A stretch of 64,000 bases of DNA from Candidatus Doudnabacteria bacterium (GTDB lineage: Bacteria > Patescibacteriota > Doudnabacteria > UBA920 > O2-02-FULL-48-8). The stretch covers positions 447,698 through 511,697 of the forward strand of contig JBBCGO010000001.1 of assembly GCA_037200925.1 (NCBI GenBank). Direction: 5' to 3'. The translations under genes and the position numbers were made by a program. Shown here in pieces: positions 29,765 through 51,931 of the stretch. The notes below the pieces were generated by a model, which was given only the letters and a program-made list of their open reading frames with translations, had not been told where the DNA came from and searched no databases. The first letter of the stretch is position 1. Every line of letters begins with the position of its first letter.

Positions 29765-29807
29765 AATCTCGCAACCCTGAACTTGGTATCGAAACCCTGA
29801 ACTTGTT

Positions 29808-30110
29808 TCAGGGTCTCTTAATAAAATCGTCATATACATCTTTCCATTCCGGATTATCTTTTTCTATAAGATTTATCTTCCATTGCCGATGCCAATTTTT
29901 GATCTGCCGCTCTCTTTCAAAGGCCTGTTCGATTGTCTCACATGGTTCATAGTAGACCAGTTTGTCAAGATTATATTTTTTCGTGAATCCCTCCACTAGT
30001 TTTTCTTTATGCTGCCAAATTCTTTCCAATCCTATGCCGGTGGCTCCTGTATAAAGAACTGTATTCATCTTGTTGGTTAATATATAAACTCCCGGTTCTT
30101 TTTCTTGCAT
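29808..30110 (-). CDS. GIY-YIG nuclease family protein (YhbQ/UPF0213-like)
   Basis: VYILTN...LYTGATG...R...H; about 100 aa. Confidence 0.8.
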   Translation of the reverse strand: MQEKEPGVYILTNKMNTVLYTGATGIGLERIWQHKEKLVEGFTKKYNLDKLVYYEPCETIEQAFERERQIKNWHRQWKINLIEKDNPEWKDVYDDFIKRP

Positions 30111-30330
30111 GTATCCAAAGATGCTGAAACGAGTTCAGCATTGCGGTATGGGTAATTTCCTATTTGAACCTTGAACCTTGAAGTTTATTTCTGTTGGACT
30201 TTGGACATTGGTCATTTGGTTTTCTTTTAGCCCCTTTTATTGGTATTTTTTATTTCTAAAACTAAAAAATGTGCCATCATTATAGCACATTCAGTCAAAA
30301 AATCAAAAAAATAATTAACCTCTTTAGTAA

Positions 30331-30390
30331 CTCCCCCTTCCTCCGCCCTCTTAACTAGAAGAGGGCGGGGCAGGGTGAGGGGAGTTAAAA
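30331..30390. repeat. Solo nested-palindrome element of the DUF559-flanking repeat family
   Basis: taactcccc...ccgccctctt-aactag-aagagggcgg...gggtgaggggagtta. Confidence 0.6.
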
Positions 30391-32003: not shown

Positions 32004-32178
32004 TTACGTTTTTTCTACCTCTTTATCGTATGCGTTGCGCAAACAATATGATACGAACGGATCGAACATAAAACCGCCGACTTCCGGCGGTATTTATGGA
32101 TAGTATGGCTTTCCCTACTTCGGGCGGATGTCTTCCCTTCTCCCTCTGGGAGAAGGTGGCCGAAGGCCGGATGAGGGA

Positions 32179-32526
32179 TTATGTCTTAAGCATATCCAAA
32201 ATCCTCTCTGCGACTCCTTCAAGATTATTGTTTATTTCGTTGTTCCAGATCCGTAACACCTTGTAACCAAGTTTATTGAGGTACTTACCTCTTTCAATAT
32301 CTTTGTTAGCATTCTCAGGTTGATTGTGTTGCCCTCCGTCTATTTCTATGACCAGTTTATATTTATAGCAGCAAAAATCAGCAATGTATTTGCCGATCAC
32401 GAATTGCCGGCGGAATTTATAATCATAAAATCTTCGGCTGCGAAGCAAATACCAAAGTTGATTCTCTTCCGGAGTTGAAGTTTTTCTCAGCTTCCTCGCC
32501 AGTTTTGTAATATTTTCTTCTTGCAT
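32179..32526 (-). CDS. DUF559 (Vsr-like) endonuclease domain protein. The ATG at 32526 is preferred over the upstream GTG.
   Basis: IEIDGGQH and the overall DUF559 pattern. Flanked by inverted repeats. Confidence 0.8.
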   Translation of the reverse strand: MQEENITKLARKLRKTSTPEENQLWYLLRSRRFYDYKFRRQFVIGKYIADFCCYKYKLVIEIDGGQHNQPENANKDIERGKYLNKLGYKVLRIWNNEINNNLEGVAERILDMLKT

Positions 32527-32758
32527 CAAACCCCTCACCCGCCCCTTCGGGGCACCCTCTCCCGTTGGGAGAGGGTAAATTAGATTTAATTAATTATATC
32601 AAACGAAAACATTTTTGCTCATGAGCAGAGTCATGAGCAAATAAAAACCCGCCTCTGGATTGAGGCGGGTTTTTGCTCGATTCACCCTCCCACCAAAATT
32701 TGGTGGGAGGGTTTATAGTTTCGAGAAACTAACTGCTTATCTCTTAACTAACTATGGG

Positions 32759-51470: not shown

Positions 51471-51866
51471 TTATTTCCTCTTTTCTTCTCCCCTTGCGGG
51501 AGAAGATGCCCGGAGGGCAGATGAGGGGTGAATAAGATTCAAAAGAATCTTTTCAAGGACTTTTTTAGGATTCCGGTCTAAATCGCTATTCCAAAATCTA
51601 AGCATTTTAAATCCTTGCTTTCTCAAATATGTTTCTCTTTCTCTATCCATAATTATATTAACAGATTTATTATGCGGACTGCCATCTAATTCAATAATTA
51701 AGCGTTTTCGGAAACAACAAAAATCGGCAATATAGTTGTCAATTCTAACCTGCCTGCGGAATTTAAATCCAAATAGTCTTCGATCTTGTAGCCAAAACCA
51801 GAGTTTTTTCTCTTGAGTGGTTTGTCTCTTTCTTAAATTCCTGGCTATATTTACACGCTCTTTCAT
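51471..51866 (-). CDS. DUF559 (Vsr-like) endonuclease domain protein. The C-terminal tail reads through the flanking repeat.
   Basis: IIELDGSPH. Paralog of 32179..32526. Flanked by inverted repeats. Confidence 0.8.
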   Translation of the reverse strand: MKERVNIARNLRKRQTTQEKKLWFWLQDRRLFGFKFRRQVRIDNYIADFCCFRKRLIIELDGSPHNKSVNIIMDRERETYLRKQGFKMLRFWNSDLDRNPKKVLEKILLNLIHPSSALRASSPARGEEKRK

Positions 51867-51931
51867 TCACCCTCACCTGTCGCGTTCCGCGACATCCTCT
51901 CCCGTCAAGGGAGAGGAAAAATTGAAATTGC

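What the first reader, a model, noticed from the sequence alone, without database searches (positions are those of the whole stretch)
32100..32590. DUF559 (Vsr-like) endonuclease genes enclosed by inverted-repeat hairpin cassettes, plus a solo copy
Both DUF559 genes (32179..32526 and 51471..51866) have, on the upstream side, CCCTCACC followed by a GC hairpin and then CCTCTCCCGT-nn-GGGAGAGG. On the downstream side they have CTTCTCCC-n-GGGAGAAG ... GATGAGGG, which is the reverse complement of CCCTCATC. That makes imperfect terminal inverted repeats of about 45-60 nt. A gene-less nested palindrome of the same family sits at 30331..30390. The second gene's reading frame even runs through the repeat. 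This looks like a small selfish or homing-type cassette, or a MITE-like vehicle, dispersing Vsr-like nucleases.
Basis: seen in the sequence. Interest (0 to 1): 0.65.

Follow-up and report, generated by a model that had tools for sequence, protein, structure and literature searches.

The report
Nuclease gene cassettes bracketed by triplex-motif repeats
Two small DUF559 (YcjD-type) nuclease genes each sit between inverted copies of a known but unexplained bacterial repeat (BoxC/PIT/TMECO), and one of these packages is an insertion that close relatives lack, which for the first time ties that repeat to a candidate partner enzyme.

Summary
Both DUF559 genes (32179-32526 and 51471-51866, minus strand) are bracketed by inverted structured units of about 45 nt. 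No such unit occurs in shuffled sequence.

The units are not ordinary terminators. Each has three blocks: a C/T-rich hairpin, a variable GC hairpin, and a third block that mirrors the hairpin's purine arm. This is the known E. coli BoxC/PIT/TMECO "intrastrand triplex" repeat. Its authors reported no associated mobility gene.

The same bracket surrounds this DUF559 clade in most of 80 genomes from many phyla. The E. coli member is ycjD.

The second cassette lies exactly between fpg and the next gene. Seven relatives have only 2-12 nt there. Two contigs (identical matches, possibly one lineage) keep a truncated remnant. Others carry GIY-YIG-type remnants at the same junction.

The first gene is under strong purifying selection (dN/dS 0.06).

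Best reading: a compact, mobile or formerly mobile nuclease cassette whose nuclease and flanking repeat are a matched pair, loosely like RAYT and REP. Cleavage of the units is inferred, not shown. No target-site duplication or recombinase was found. The "solo copy" at 30331-30390 is not a complete unit.

The parts
32531..32576 (-). g1 5' unit. Hairpin A is 32554-32576 (ACCCTCTCCC/GGGAGAGGGT). Hairpin B is 32541-32553 (GCCCC-GAA-GGGGC). The third block GGGTGAGGGG is 32531-32540 and ends 4 nt before the ATG.
   Evidence: It matches the TMECO blocks CCCTCNCCC..GGGNGAGGG..GGGNGAGGG, with 0 matches in shuffles. DNA fold -16.1 kcal/mol, z -3.8.
32179..32526 (-). g1: DUF559/YcjD-family nuclease gene, 115 aa.
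   Evidence: Pfam PF04480 E=3e-40. NCBIfam PRK09767 (YcjD) E=4e-30. PDB 3HRL E=2.6e-21. dN/dS 0.06 against the 80%-identical ortholog in L001. Invariant D50, E61, D63, H67, D76.
32136..32177 (-). g1 3' unit. Block CCCTCATCC is 32169-32177. Hairpin B' is 32158-32168. Hairpin A' is 32136-32156 (CCTTCTCCC/GGGAGAAGG). It starts 1 nt after the stop codon.
   Evidence: perfect mirror third block. DNA fold z -3.3.
51870..51928 (-). g2 5' unit. Hairpin A is 51895-51917. Hairpin B is 51878-51894 (TGTCGCG-GAA-CGCGACA). The third block AGGTGAGGG is 51870-51878. An outer inverted-repeat extension runs 51918-51928 (ATTTCAATTTT).
   Evidence: (I1, 36-nt arms). DNA fold z -6.2.
51471..51866 (-). g2: DUF559/YcjD-family nuclease gene, 131 aa. 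The conserved domain ends near 51534. The last ~20 codons are a read-through of the 3' unit.
   Evidence: Pfam PF04480 E=3e-37. 45% identical to g1. The C-terminal tail HPSSALRASSPARGEEKRK is encoded by the repeat.
51473..51527 (-). g2 3' unit. Block CCCTCATCT is 51519-51527. Hairpin B' is 51507-51519. Hairpin A' is 51484-51506 (TCTTCTCCC/GGGAGAAGA). The outer extension is 51473-51483. It abuts the ATG (51466) of the next gene.
   Evidence: The orthologous 3' unit survives next to a truncated gene in L095/L096.
30328..30387 (-). Gene-less nested palindrome that contains CCCTCACC. A doubtful relative, not a complete three-block unit.
   Evidence: -20.8 kcal/mol, z -5.9. Not found by the three-block detector.
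32684..32712 (.). 13-bp C/T-G/A hairpin (ACCCTCCCACCAA/TTGGTGGGAGGGT), about 110 nt from the g1 cassette. Similar in composition, with no third block.
   Evidence: z -6.0. Terminator-like on the + strand only.

Best explanation
Each DUF559 gene is the cargo of a compact cassette of about 0.45 kb. The ends of the cassette are inverted copies of a BoxC/PIT/TMECO-type unit.

Each unit is a C/T-G/A hairpin plus a third block that mirrors the purine arm. In this genome loop 2 is expanded into an extra GC hairpin. The third blocks face the gene. They lie within a few nucleotides of the start codon and of the end of the conserved domain.

The cassette is a mobile, or formerly mobile, selfish unit that lands in short intergenic spacers. 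The g2 copy sits exactly between fpg and the next gene of a conserved gene string.

The encoded nuclease has a Vsr/EDxHD-homing-endonuclease fold and a conserved catalytic core. It is proposed to be the partner enzyme of the repeat. It would recognise the folded or duplex unit and nick or cut at or near it. Host recombination and repair would then copy the cassette, or gene-less units, into new sites.

Gene-less units vastly outnumber genes, as REPs outnumber RAYT genes.

What is shown: the anatomy, the covariation, the cross-phylum association, the insertion polymorphism, decay of the gene in L095/L096, and purifying selection on g1.

What is inferred: that the nuclease acts on its own flanks, and the copy mechanism.
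For: 1. Anatomy and non-randomness.

2. The flanks are true inverted copies that co-vary within a locus. In 79 loci the within-locus score has median 48, against 20 between loci and 16 shuffled. 73% of loci beat every shuffle. Mann-Whitney p=1.6e-22. Linker lengths match between the two sides.

3. Association across phyla. A C/T hairpin lies within 160 nt upstream in 59/80 loci, downstream in 63/80 and on both sides in 48/80, against 1.7% of background windows. The third block faces the gene in 49/77 upstream and 48/77 downstream cases. The arms end a median of 13 nt before the start-equivalent position and begin 5 nt after the domain end. The ORF reads into the 3' arm in 47/57 loci.

4. Three-block covariation follows the mirror rule: 73 perfect fits against 24 for a direct repeat. 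All four window units obey it, each with a different variant.

5. Identity of the unit. The TMECO pattern and its BoxC/PIT history are given in PMC4666352. The E. coli ortholog ycjD has such units beside it.

6. Insertion polymorphism at the fpg|orf115 junction: empty in seven relatives, a truncated remnant with an intact 3' unit in L095/L096, and a solo unit in L100.

7. The gene is functional. dN/dS is 0.06 with dS near saturation, yet the non-coding units are still conserved.

8. Nuclease fold. PDB 3HRL at 1e-33 and the catalytic domain of the homing endonuclease I-Bth0305I (3R3P) at 2e-6.

9. E. coli genomes with ycjD carry a median of 13 other unit-like places, against 3 in genomes without it.

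10. Seven Gastranaerophilales loci share no flanking genes, so the cassette sits in different contexts in related species.
Against: - No target-site duplication is visible at the g2 junction.
- No transposase, integrase or recombinase is present, and a PD-(D/E)xK nuclease alone cannot join strands.
- In E. coli, ycjD sits at one fixed locus in 3,377 genomes, so recent movement within that species is not evident.
- g1 is strongly conserved with its relative. That fits a domesticated gene as well as a selfish one.
- Most canonical units have no DUF559 gene nearby: 4 of 142 in IMG/VR loci. Units also persist in E. coli without ycjD, about 10 places in O157:H7.
- The E. coli correlation is confounded by phylogroup.
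- The neighbour-joining tree used to polarise gain and loss is rough. Repeated precise deletion is not excluded.
- Only 64 kb of this genome could be searched.
Confidence: 0.6

Rival explanations
1. RAYT-like domestication. The DUF559 gene is a vertically inherited host gene. Its job is to process, spread or restrain the dispersed triplex-motif units. The gene is merely nested between two of them, as RAYT genes are nested between REPs, and the gene itself does not move.
For: - One fixed ycjD locus in E. coli, with many solo units (PMC4666352).
- Strong purifying selection on g1.
- Rare on plasmids (51 of 72,556 records) and phages (2 of 50,697).
- Units far outnumber genes.
Against: - The empty fpg|orf115 junctions carry no unit at all, so the gene and both units arrived together.
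- A truncated remnant shows the gene is dispensable there.
- In the 64-kb window every complete unit flanks a gene, so there is no dispersed population to serve.
- This reading overlaps with the best explanation rather than excluding it.
Confidence: 0.2
2. The flanks are expression or insulation structures for a housekeeping repair nuclease. The hairpins would stabilise or delimit the mRNA. The third block next to the ATG would act as the ribosome-binding site, and its complement after the stop would pair with it to throttle translation of a potentially toxic nuclease.
For: - GGTGAGGG lies 3-4 nt (g1, g2) before the ATG and resembles a Shine-Dalgarno sequence.
- The 5' and 3' blocks are complementary, with a G-U-compatible change in both window genes.
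- A DUF559 protein causes DNA damage in Caulobacter when unchecked (PMC12907096).
Against: - Across loci there is no excess of G-U-compatible over A-C-type changes (15 against 11).
- Neither mRNA hairpins nor long-range pairing explains the mirror-repeat covariation of the third block. Purine-motif triplexes do not form in RNA (PMC4666352).
- The same units occur in large numbers without any gene.
- No Rfam family matches.
- It does not explain the insertion polymorphism.
Confidence: 0.1
3. It is a Vsr-type mismatch-repair nuclease working with an unlinked cytosine methyltransferase, as proposed for Caulobacter VsrA. The flanking repeats would be incidental neighbours.
For: - Same fold superfamily as Vsr.
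- A DUF559 protein is functionally linked to a solitary methyltransferase in Caulobacter.
Against: - The Vsr model TIGR00632 scores 21.6 bits against a cut-off of 97.85.
- No methyltransferase gene is adjacent.
- Flanks found in about 60-80% of 80 loci across phyla, co-varying within each locus, cannot be incidental.
Confidence: 0.07
4. The hairpins are ordinary intrinsic terminators, or chance GC-rich palindromes.
For: They are GC-rich hairpins in intergenic DNA. One compositionally similar hairpin (32684-32712) scores as terminator-like on the + strand.
Against: - None of the four units has a T-run, and none is called on the gene strand.
- They occur upstream as well as downstream of the genes.
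- 0 matches in shuffles.
- They are absent after the other genes of the window.
Confidence: 0.02

Closest known systems
BoxC / PIT (potential intrastrand triplex) / TMECO repeats of E. coli and other bacteria (Holder et al. 2015, PMC4666352; earlier work by Bergler, Bachellier and Hoyne as cited there)
   Same: - The same three blocks in the same order: CCCTCNCCC, loop, GGGNGAGGG, loop, GGGNGAGGG.
- The third block mirrors the second.
- Intergenic location.
- Occurrence as inverted pairs of two slightly different types.
- Linked by its authors to local genome rearrangement.
   Different: - In the window, loop 2 is a 12-16 nt GC hairpin instead of 3 nt. The 3' units carry coordinated C-to-T variants.
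- Every complete unit in the window brackets a nuclease gene.
- The published work reports no associated gene or mobility function. In the searched library, none of the 25 papers that mention DUF559 turned up in the BoxC or intrastrand-triplex searches, and ycjD and 'endonuclease' are absent from Holder et al..
REP / REPIN elements and their RAYT (TnpA-REP) genes
   Same: - A low-copy nuclease-type gene nested between inverted copies of a short structured repeat. The repeat is otherwise dispersed, gene-less and far more numerous.
- The repeat sequence co-varies with the gene copy.
- Chromosomal, and rare on plasmids and phages.
   Different: - The enzyme is a PD-(D/E)xK Vsr-like nuclease, not an HUH Y1 transposase.
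- The unit has three blocks with triplex-type mirror symmetry, not a simple hairpin with a GTAG tag.
- Here the gene plus flanks behaves as an insertion absent from relatives. RAYT genes are described as vertically inherited (my knowledge of Nunvar 2010 and Bertels & Rainey 2011; both titles are listed).
Free-standing homing endonuclease genes, and the Vsr-like (EDxHD) homing endonuclease I-Bth0305I (PDB 3R3P)
   Same: - A small stand-alone nuclease gene wedged between conserved genes, present in some lineages and absent in others, with decayed copies.
- Detectable homology to the I-Bth0305I catalytic domain (2e-6).
- A second nuclease family (GIY-YIG) occupies the same junction in other relatives.
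   Different: - Homing endonuclease genes are not bounded by structured inverted repeats.
- No intron or intein is involved.
- Cleavage of the empty site is untested.
E. coli YcjD (b1289, NCBIfam PRK09767)
   Same: A full-length homolog (E=4e-30) with a repeat-derived hairpin over its stop codon and a canonical TMECO unit downstream. It is polymorphic among strains, alternating with the eefRABCD operon at the sapF-fabI locus.
   Different: Below the equivalog cut-off (104 against 218 bits). The E. coli cassette is degenerate: there is no 5' unit, and the gene's 3' end is partly duplicated.
MITEs and TIR transposons
   Same: Terminal inverted repeats of about 40-60 nt, insertion into intergenic spacers, and many gene-less relatives.
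   Different: No DDE transposase. No target-site duplication seen. The common gene-less pairs face outward (third blocks outside), which is not what an internally deleted cassette would look like.

Membership tests
BoxC/PIT/TMECO triplex-motif repeat | Three blocks CCCTCNCCC / GGGNGAGGG / GGGNGAGGG, in that order | tested here: met
   The g1 5' unit matches all three blocks exactly. The other three units match with one coordinated substitution per block.
BoxC/PIT/TMECO triplex-motif repeat | Loop 1 of 3-6 nt and loop 2 of 3 nt | tested here: not met
   Loop 1 is 3-5 nt, which fits. Loop 2 is 12-16 nt and forms its own GC hairpin in all four window units. Among 80 other loci, 3 nt is the commonest loop 2.
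BoxC/PIT/TMECO triplex-motif repeat | The third block is an antiparallel (mirror) copy of the purine arm, with G opposite G and A or T opposite A | tested here: met
   Three units are perfect by the detector. The g1 5' unit is perfect by inspection. Across loci, 73 units fit the mirror rule perfectly against 24 for the direct rule.
BoxC/PIT/TMECO triplex-motif repeat | Many dispersed intergenic copies in the genome | tested here: not met
   In the 64-kb window all complete units flank the two genes. The rest of the 964-kb contig could not be searched.
BoxC/PIT/TMECO triplex-motif repeat | Forms an intrastrand triplex in vitro | not testable with these tools
   ViennaRNA predicts only the hairpins.
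DUF559 (PF04480) / YcjD (PRK09767) | Pfam gathering score | tested here: met
   136.9 and 127.3 bits against a cut-off of 20.6.
DUF559 (PF04480) / YcjD (PRK09767) | NCBIfam equivalog cut-off of 218 bits | tested here: not met
   104.3 and 98.2 bits, aligned over the full length. These are homologs, not equivalogs.
Vsr very-short-patch repair endonuclease | TIGR00632 cut-off of 97.85 bits | tested here: not met
   21.6 bits for g1 and no hit for g2.
Vsr very-short-patch repair endonuclease | Linked cytosine-5 methyltransferase gene | tested here: not met
   The neighbours are fpg, an unannotated 115-aa gene and large surface-type proteins.
Free-standing homing endonuclease gene | Presence/absence at one site between conserved genes | tested here: met
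   At the fpg|orf115 junction the window has 465 nt and seven relatives have 2-12 nt.
Free-standing homing endonuclease gene | The nuclease cleaves the allele that lacks the gene | not testable with these tools
   Needs biochemistry.
REP/RAYT | HUH Y1 transposase | tested here: not met
   The protein has a PD-(D/E)xK / Vsr-like fold.
REP/RAYT | The gene is flanked by inverted copies of a repeat that is dispersed in the same genome | tested here: inconclusive
   Inverted flanks are met. Dispersal is shown for E. coli and other genomes but not for this genome.
MITE / TIR transposon | Terminal inverted repeats plus a target-site duplication | tested here: inconclusive
   Inverted repeats are present. 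No duplication is recognisable when the filled and empty junctions are compared. Sequence divergence limits this test.
Intrinsic terminator | GC hairpin followed by a T-run | tested here: not met
   None of the four units is called on the gene strand.

The most novel reading that the evidence does not exclude
YcjD-family DUF559 nucleases are the missing partner enzymes of the BoxC/PIT/TMECO triplex-motif repeats. Together they would form a previously unrecognised, phylum-spanning class of nuclease-repeat element. In it, a Vsr-like PD-(D/E)xK nuclease acts on a three-block, hairpin-plus-third-strand DNA structure to move itself and its gene-less units. This would also explain the genome instability reported around these repeats.
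Probability: 0.35. Interest if true: 0.85.

Novelty: new variant of a known kind. Interest (0 to 1): 0.7.

Why it matters
BoxC/PIT/TMECO repeats have had no origin, partner protein or function since the 1990s. The 2015 survey counted 3,610 copies in 262 genomes, linked them to genome rearrangement, and stated that no mobility gene lies near them.

DUF559/YcjD is a very large family with almost no functional data. It has 25,300 clusters at 50% identity.

Almost every gene of this clade is nested between inverted copies of that repeat, and the package comes and goes at a conserved gene junction. That turns two orphan problems into one testable hypothesis.

It can be tested in E. coli K-12 with ycjD and its 23 TMECO copies. 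It would also add a non-HUH, non-DDE enzyme to the short list of proteins tied to bacterial interspersed repeats.

Tried and rejected
- RNA-level pairing between the 5' and 3' blocks. Both window genes show a G-U-compatible change, but across loci the counts are 15 against 11, so there is no signal.
- Known RNA families. Rfam finds only tRNAs at gathering scores, and nothing on the units at E<=1.
- Ordinary terminators. Rejected.
- Target-site duplication at the g2 junction. None recognisable.
- Carriage by plasmids or phages. 51 of 72,556 plasmid records, several of them chromosome-sized, and 2 of 50,697 phage records.
- Defence-system membership. Only weak domain-level PADLOC hits: DpdF, a type II methyl-directed enzyme and a homing endonuclease, at 1e-5 to 5e-4.
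- Reverse association, starting from canonical units in IMG/VR. Only 4 of 142 units lie beside a DUF559 gene, so units far outnumber genes. This test cannot confirm the link.
- Literature. Searches for DUF559 with repeat or palindrome terms, for ycjD, for boxC and for intrastrand triplex found no paper that links the gene to the repeat. The library lacks most subscription journals.
Full report
**What is in the window**

The window is 100% identical over 5.5 kb to GCA_037975565.1, contig JBBCBH010000057.1. Its closest protein relatives are from Patescibacteria.

Two minus-strand ORFs, 32179-32526 (g1, 115 aa) and 51471-51866 (g2, 131 aa), match Pfam DUF559 at 3e-40 and 3e-37. They are 45% identical to each other.

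Read on the gene strand, both genes have the same surroundings:
- a hairpin CCTCTCCC-loop-GGGAGAGG;
- a second, sequence-variable GC hairpin;
- the block GGTGAGGG, 3-4 nt before the ATG;
- the gene;
- CCCTCATC at or just after the end of the conserved domain;
- another variable GC hairpin;
- the hairpin CTTCTCCC-loop-GGGAGAAG.

The composite patterns occur only at these four places, and never in 100 shuffles. Each unit folds as two adjacent hairpins with z-scores of -3.3 to -6.2.

The 'solo' at 30331-30390 is a stable nested palindrome containing CCCTCACC, but it has a different stem and is not a complete unit.

**The 'imperfect' repeats are internally consistent**

The 5' units use GGGAGAGG with a third block GGTGAGGG. 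The 3' units use GGGAGAAG with GATGAGGG on the other strand. g1 and g2 also differ at the end of the stem (…GGG/T against …GGA), and the third block follows that change too.

In every case the third block is the mirror image of the purine arm, with T or A opposite A (g1 5' unit by inspection).

Across 80 other loci, units whose purine arm is not mirror-symmetric fit the mirror rule perfectly 73 times, against 24 for a direct-repeat rule. This three-way covariation is the signature of a potential intrastrand purine-motif triplex.

**Identity of the unit**

The pattern CCCTCNCCC-N3-6-GGGNGAGGG-N3-GGGNGAGGG is the 'TMECO' motif of Holder et al. 2015 (PMC4666352). It was earlier called BoxC and PIT. 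That paper reports:
- 23 copies in E. coli K-12;
- 3,610 copies in 262 proteobacterial genomes;
- triplex formation in vitro;
- excess rearrangement at TMECO loci;
- explicitly, no transposase, integrase or other mobility function nearby.

The g1 5' unit matches the three blocks exactly, but its loop 2 is 15 nt instead of 3. The window units are therefore a variant in which loop 2 has become a hairpin.

**The association is general**

A scan of one genome per species returned 80 loci that encode relatives 43-57% identical to g1. They come from Melainabacteria, Alpha-, Beta-, Gamma- and Deltaproteobacteria, Dehalococcoidia, Nitrospirota, Bacteroidota, Firmicutes and Patescibacteria.

- A C/T-rich perfect hairpin lies within 160 nt upstream in 59 loci, downstream in 63 and on both sides in 48. 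Only 1.7% of background windows have one.
- The 5' flank and the reverse complement of the 3' flank align far better within a locus (median score 48) than between loci (20) or after shuffling (16). 73% of loci beat every shuffle.
- Variants change together on both sides, for example CCCTCCCC with GGGTGGGG, or CCTTCCC with GGATGGG. Linker lengths match between the two sides.
- The third blocks face the gene (49/77 upstream, 48/77 downstream).
- The arms hug the coding region: a median of 13 nt before the start-equivalent position and 5 nt after the domain end. In 47 of 57 loci the ORF reads into the 3' arm.

The E. coli member is ycjD. It has a repeat-derived hairpin over its stop codon and a canonical TMECO unit about 150 nt downstream.

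**Mobility**

The g2 cassette fills the whole 465-nt gap between the fpg stop codon and the ATG of the next gene. Metagenome loci encoding Fpg proteins 45-80% identical keep the order fpg, orf115, orf365. Their junctions differ:

| State of the fpg/orf115 junction | Loci |
|---|---|
| Empty, only 2-12 nt | L088, L090, L091, L092, L098, L099, L102 |
| 5'-truncated DUF559 remnant plus a 3' unit whose hairpin A is identical to the window's, loop included, and whose hairpin B differs by compensatory changes | L095, L096 (identical matches, possibly one lineage) |
| 87-nt solo unit | L100 |
| Hairpins of the type that flank the window's GIY-YIG gene | L089, L093 |
| The same, plus a short GIY-YIG C-terminal remnant (16 aa, 75% identical, E=0.004) | L094 |

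A rough neighbour-joining tree places the empty sites basally and the occupied ones in the crown. The window's sister (L088) is empty.

The gene and both units therefore arrived together in a spacer that had no unit. The gene can decay, and the junction has been used repeatedly by two nuclease families. No target-site duplication is recognisable.

Seven Gastranaerophilales loci share no flanking genes. In E. coli, ycjD is present in 3,377 of 5,426 complete genomes. In the genomes without ycjD that were examined, and in the published survey, the eefRABCD operon occupies the same locus.

**The gene is functional**

g1 and its ortholog in L001-L004 are 80% identical in protein. dN/dS is 0.06 and synonymous sites are near saturation. 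The non-coding units nevertheless remain alignable at about 80-90%. The neighbouring genes are only 33-44% identical.

D50, E61, D63, H67 and D76 are invariant across 24 homologs.

The closest solved structures are the Neisseria DUF559 protein 3HRL (1e-33) and the catalytic domain of the homing endonuclease I-Bth0305I, 3R3P (2e-6).

The curated Vsr model is not met (21.6 bits against 97.85). The YcjD model aligns over its full length but below the equivalog cut-off.

The family is very large, with 25,300 clusters at 50% identity. It is rare on plasmids and phages.

**Interpretation**

The best-supported reading is a compact nuclease cassette bounded by inverted triplex-motif units. It is mobile or formerly mobile, and the nuclease and the repeat are a matched pair.

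Three features recall RAYT/REP and autonomous/non-autonomous transposon pairs:
- Gene-less units vastly outnumber genes. E. coli has 23 units and one gene, and only 4 of 142 canonical units in IMG/VR loci lie beside a DUF559 gene.
- E. coli genomes with ycjD have a median of 13 other unit-like places, against 3 in genomes without it. This comparison is confounded by phylogroup, and O157:H7 keeps about 10 places.
- DNA more than 600 nt from DUF559 genes carries about 16 times more complete units per kb than unrelated metagenome loci.

That the nuclease recognises or cuts its own flanks, and that spread goes through host recombination or repair, is inference.

Points against a simple transposon: no strand-transfer enzyme, no target-site duplication, a fixed locus in E. 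coli, and strong long-term conservation of g1.

**Rivals**

- A purely domesticated RAYT-like gene is compatible with much of the data, but not with the unit-free empty sites.
- An RNA-level regulatory role for the flanks is not supported. There is no G-U bias, no Rfam match, and it does not explain the mirror covariation.
- A Vsr-type repair role with incidental flanks does not explain the cross-phylum bracket.
- Ordinary terminators are excluded.

**Novelty**

The repeat is known and the protein family is known. In the searchable library I found no paper that links them, and the main paper on the repeat states that no such gene context was found. The library lacks most subscription journals, so earlier mention elsewhere cannot be excluded.

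I rate this a new variant of a known kind (nuclease-associated interspersed repeats, or free-standing nuclease cassettes). It matters because it gives an orphan repeat and an orphan nuclease a shared hypothesis that can be tested in E. coli.

Noticed in passing
window 29795-30141 (minus strand): A 100-aa GIY-YIG nuclease gene (29808-30110, Pfam E=5e-14) is bracketed by its own pair of related hairpins. ATGCTGAA-CTCGT-TTCAGCAT (30121-30141) lies 10 nt before the ATG. CCCTGAA-ACAAG-TTCAGGG (29795-29813) spans the stop codon, with a partial extra copy at about 29773-29784. This is the same design as the DUF559 cassettes but with a different repeat family.
   Followed up: partly
L089 3416-3527, L093 1204-1281, L094 3416-3574: At the exact fpg|orf115 junction where the window has the DUF559 cassette, these relatives carry hairpins of the GIY-YIG-associated type (ATCCTGAA..TTCAGGAT, ATCCCGGA..TCCGGGAT). 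L094 also has a 16-aa remnant of a GIY-YIG C-terminus (E=0.004). The same spacer has apparently been invaded by two different nuclease-cassette families.
   Followed up: partly
L024 1734-2855 (also L034 and L053): In three gut-associated genomes that share flanking genes, the DUF559 cassette, including both repeat units, lies in frame inside a 373-aa ORF. Judged by eye (no family search was run), the two halves of that ORF carry zinc-carboxypeptidase (M14)-like motifs: HGDEPQG ... NPDG..NANGVDLNRNF. The repeats are translated as PPLPCPPPRGGRE and LPPLRGRVRERG.
   Followed up: partly
L086 2250-2430 (E. coli K-12, between ycjD and fabI): About 50 nt of the 3' end of ycjD (…GAGACGGTGCTGGAGAATATTC…CTGAACCG) is duplicated just downstream of the gene, between its stop-codon hairpin and the canonical TMECO unit. 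This may be a scar of recombination or gene conversion.
   Followed up: no
L087 (E. coli O157:H7) compared with L086 (K-12): ycjD and the eefRABCD efflux operon are alternative occupants of the sapF-fabI locus (also reported in PMC12817139). In a spread sample, genomes without ycjD show fewer TMECO-like places (median 3 against 13). B2-type strains have 1-3 and O157:H7 about 10.
   Followed up: partly
window 32614-32641: A perfect 11-bp palindrome, TTTGCTCATGA-N6-TCATGAGCAAA, lies in the AT-rich stretch just upstream of the g1 5' unit. It could be an operator or a terminator for g1 transcription. The relative L001 has a different hairpin at that position.
   Followed up: no
L014 2330-2420, L033 2336-2450, L066 2340-2470, L226 5162-5321: Gene-less units often occur as outward-facing inverted pairs (block-hairpin, spacer, hairpin-block). 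This is the opposite arrangement to the inward-facing pair around DUF559 genes. In the Enterobacteriaceae loci L014 and L033, such a pair sits just downstream of the gene and no unit lies upstream. How the two arrangements relate is unexplained.
   Followed up: no
P0121, P0124: Some predicted proteins contain two or three DUF559 domains: 377 aa with 3 stretches, and 1,214 aa with 2. Many 'single-domain' representatives are 130-200 aa long, probably because the ORF calls read through the flanking repeats.
   Followed up: no
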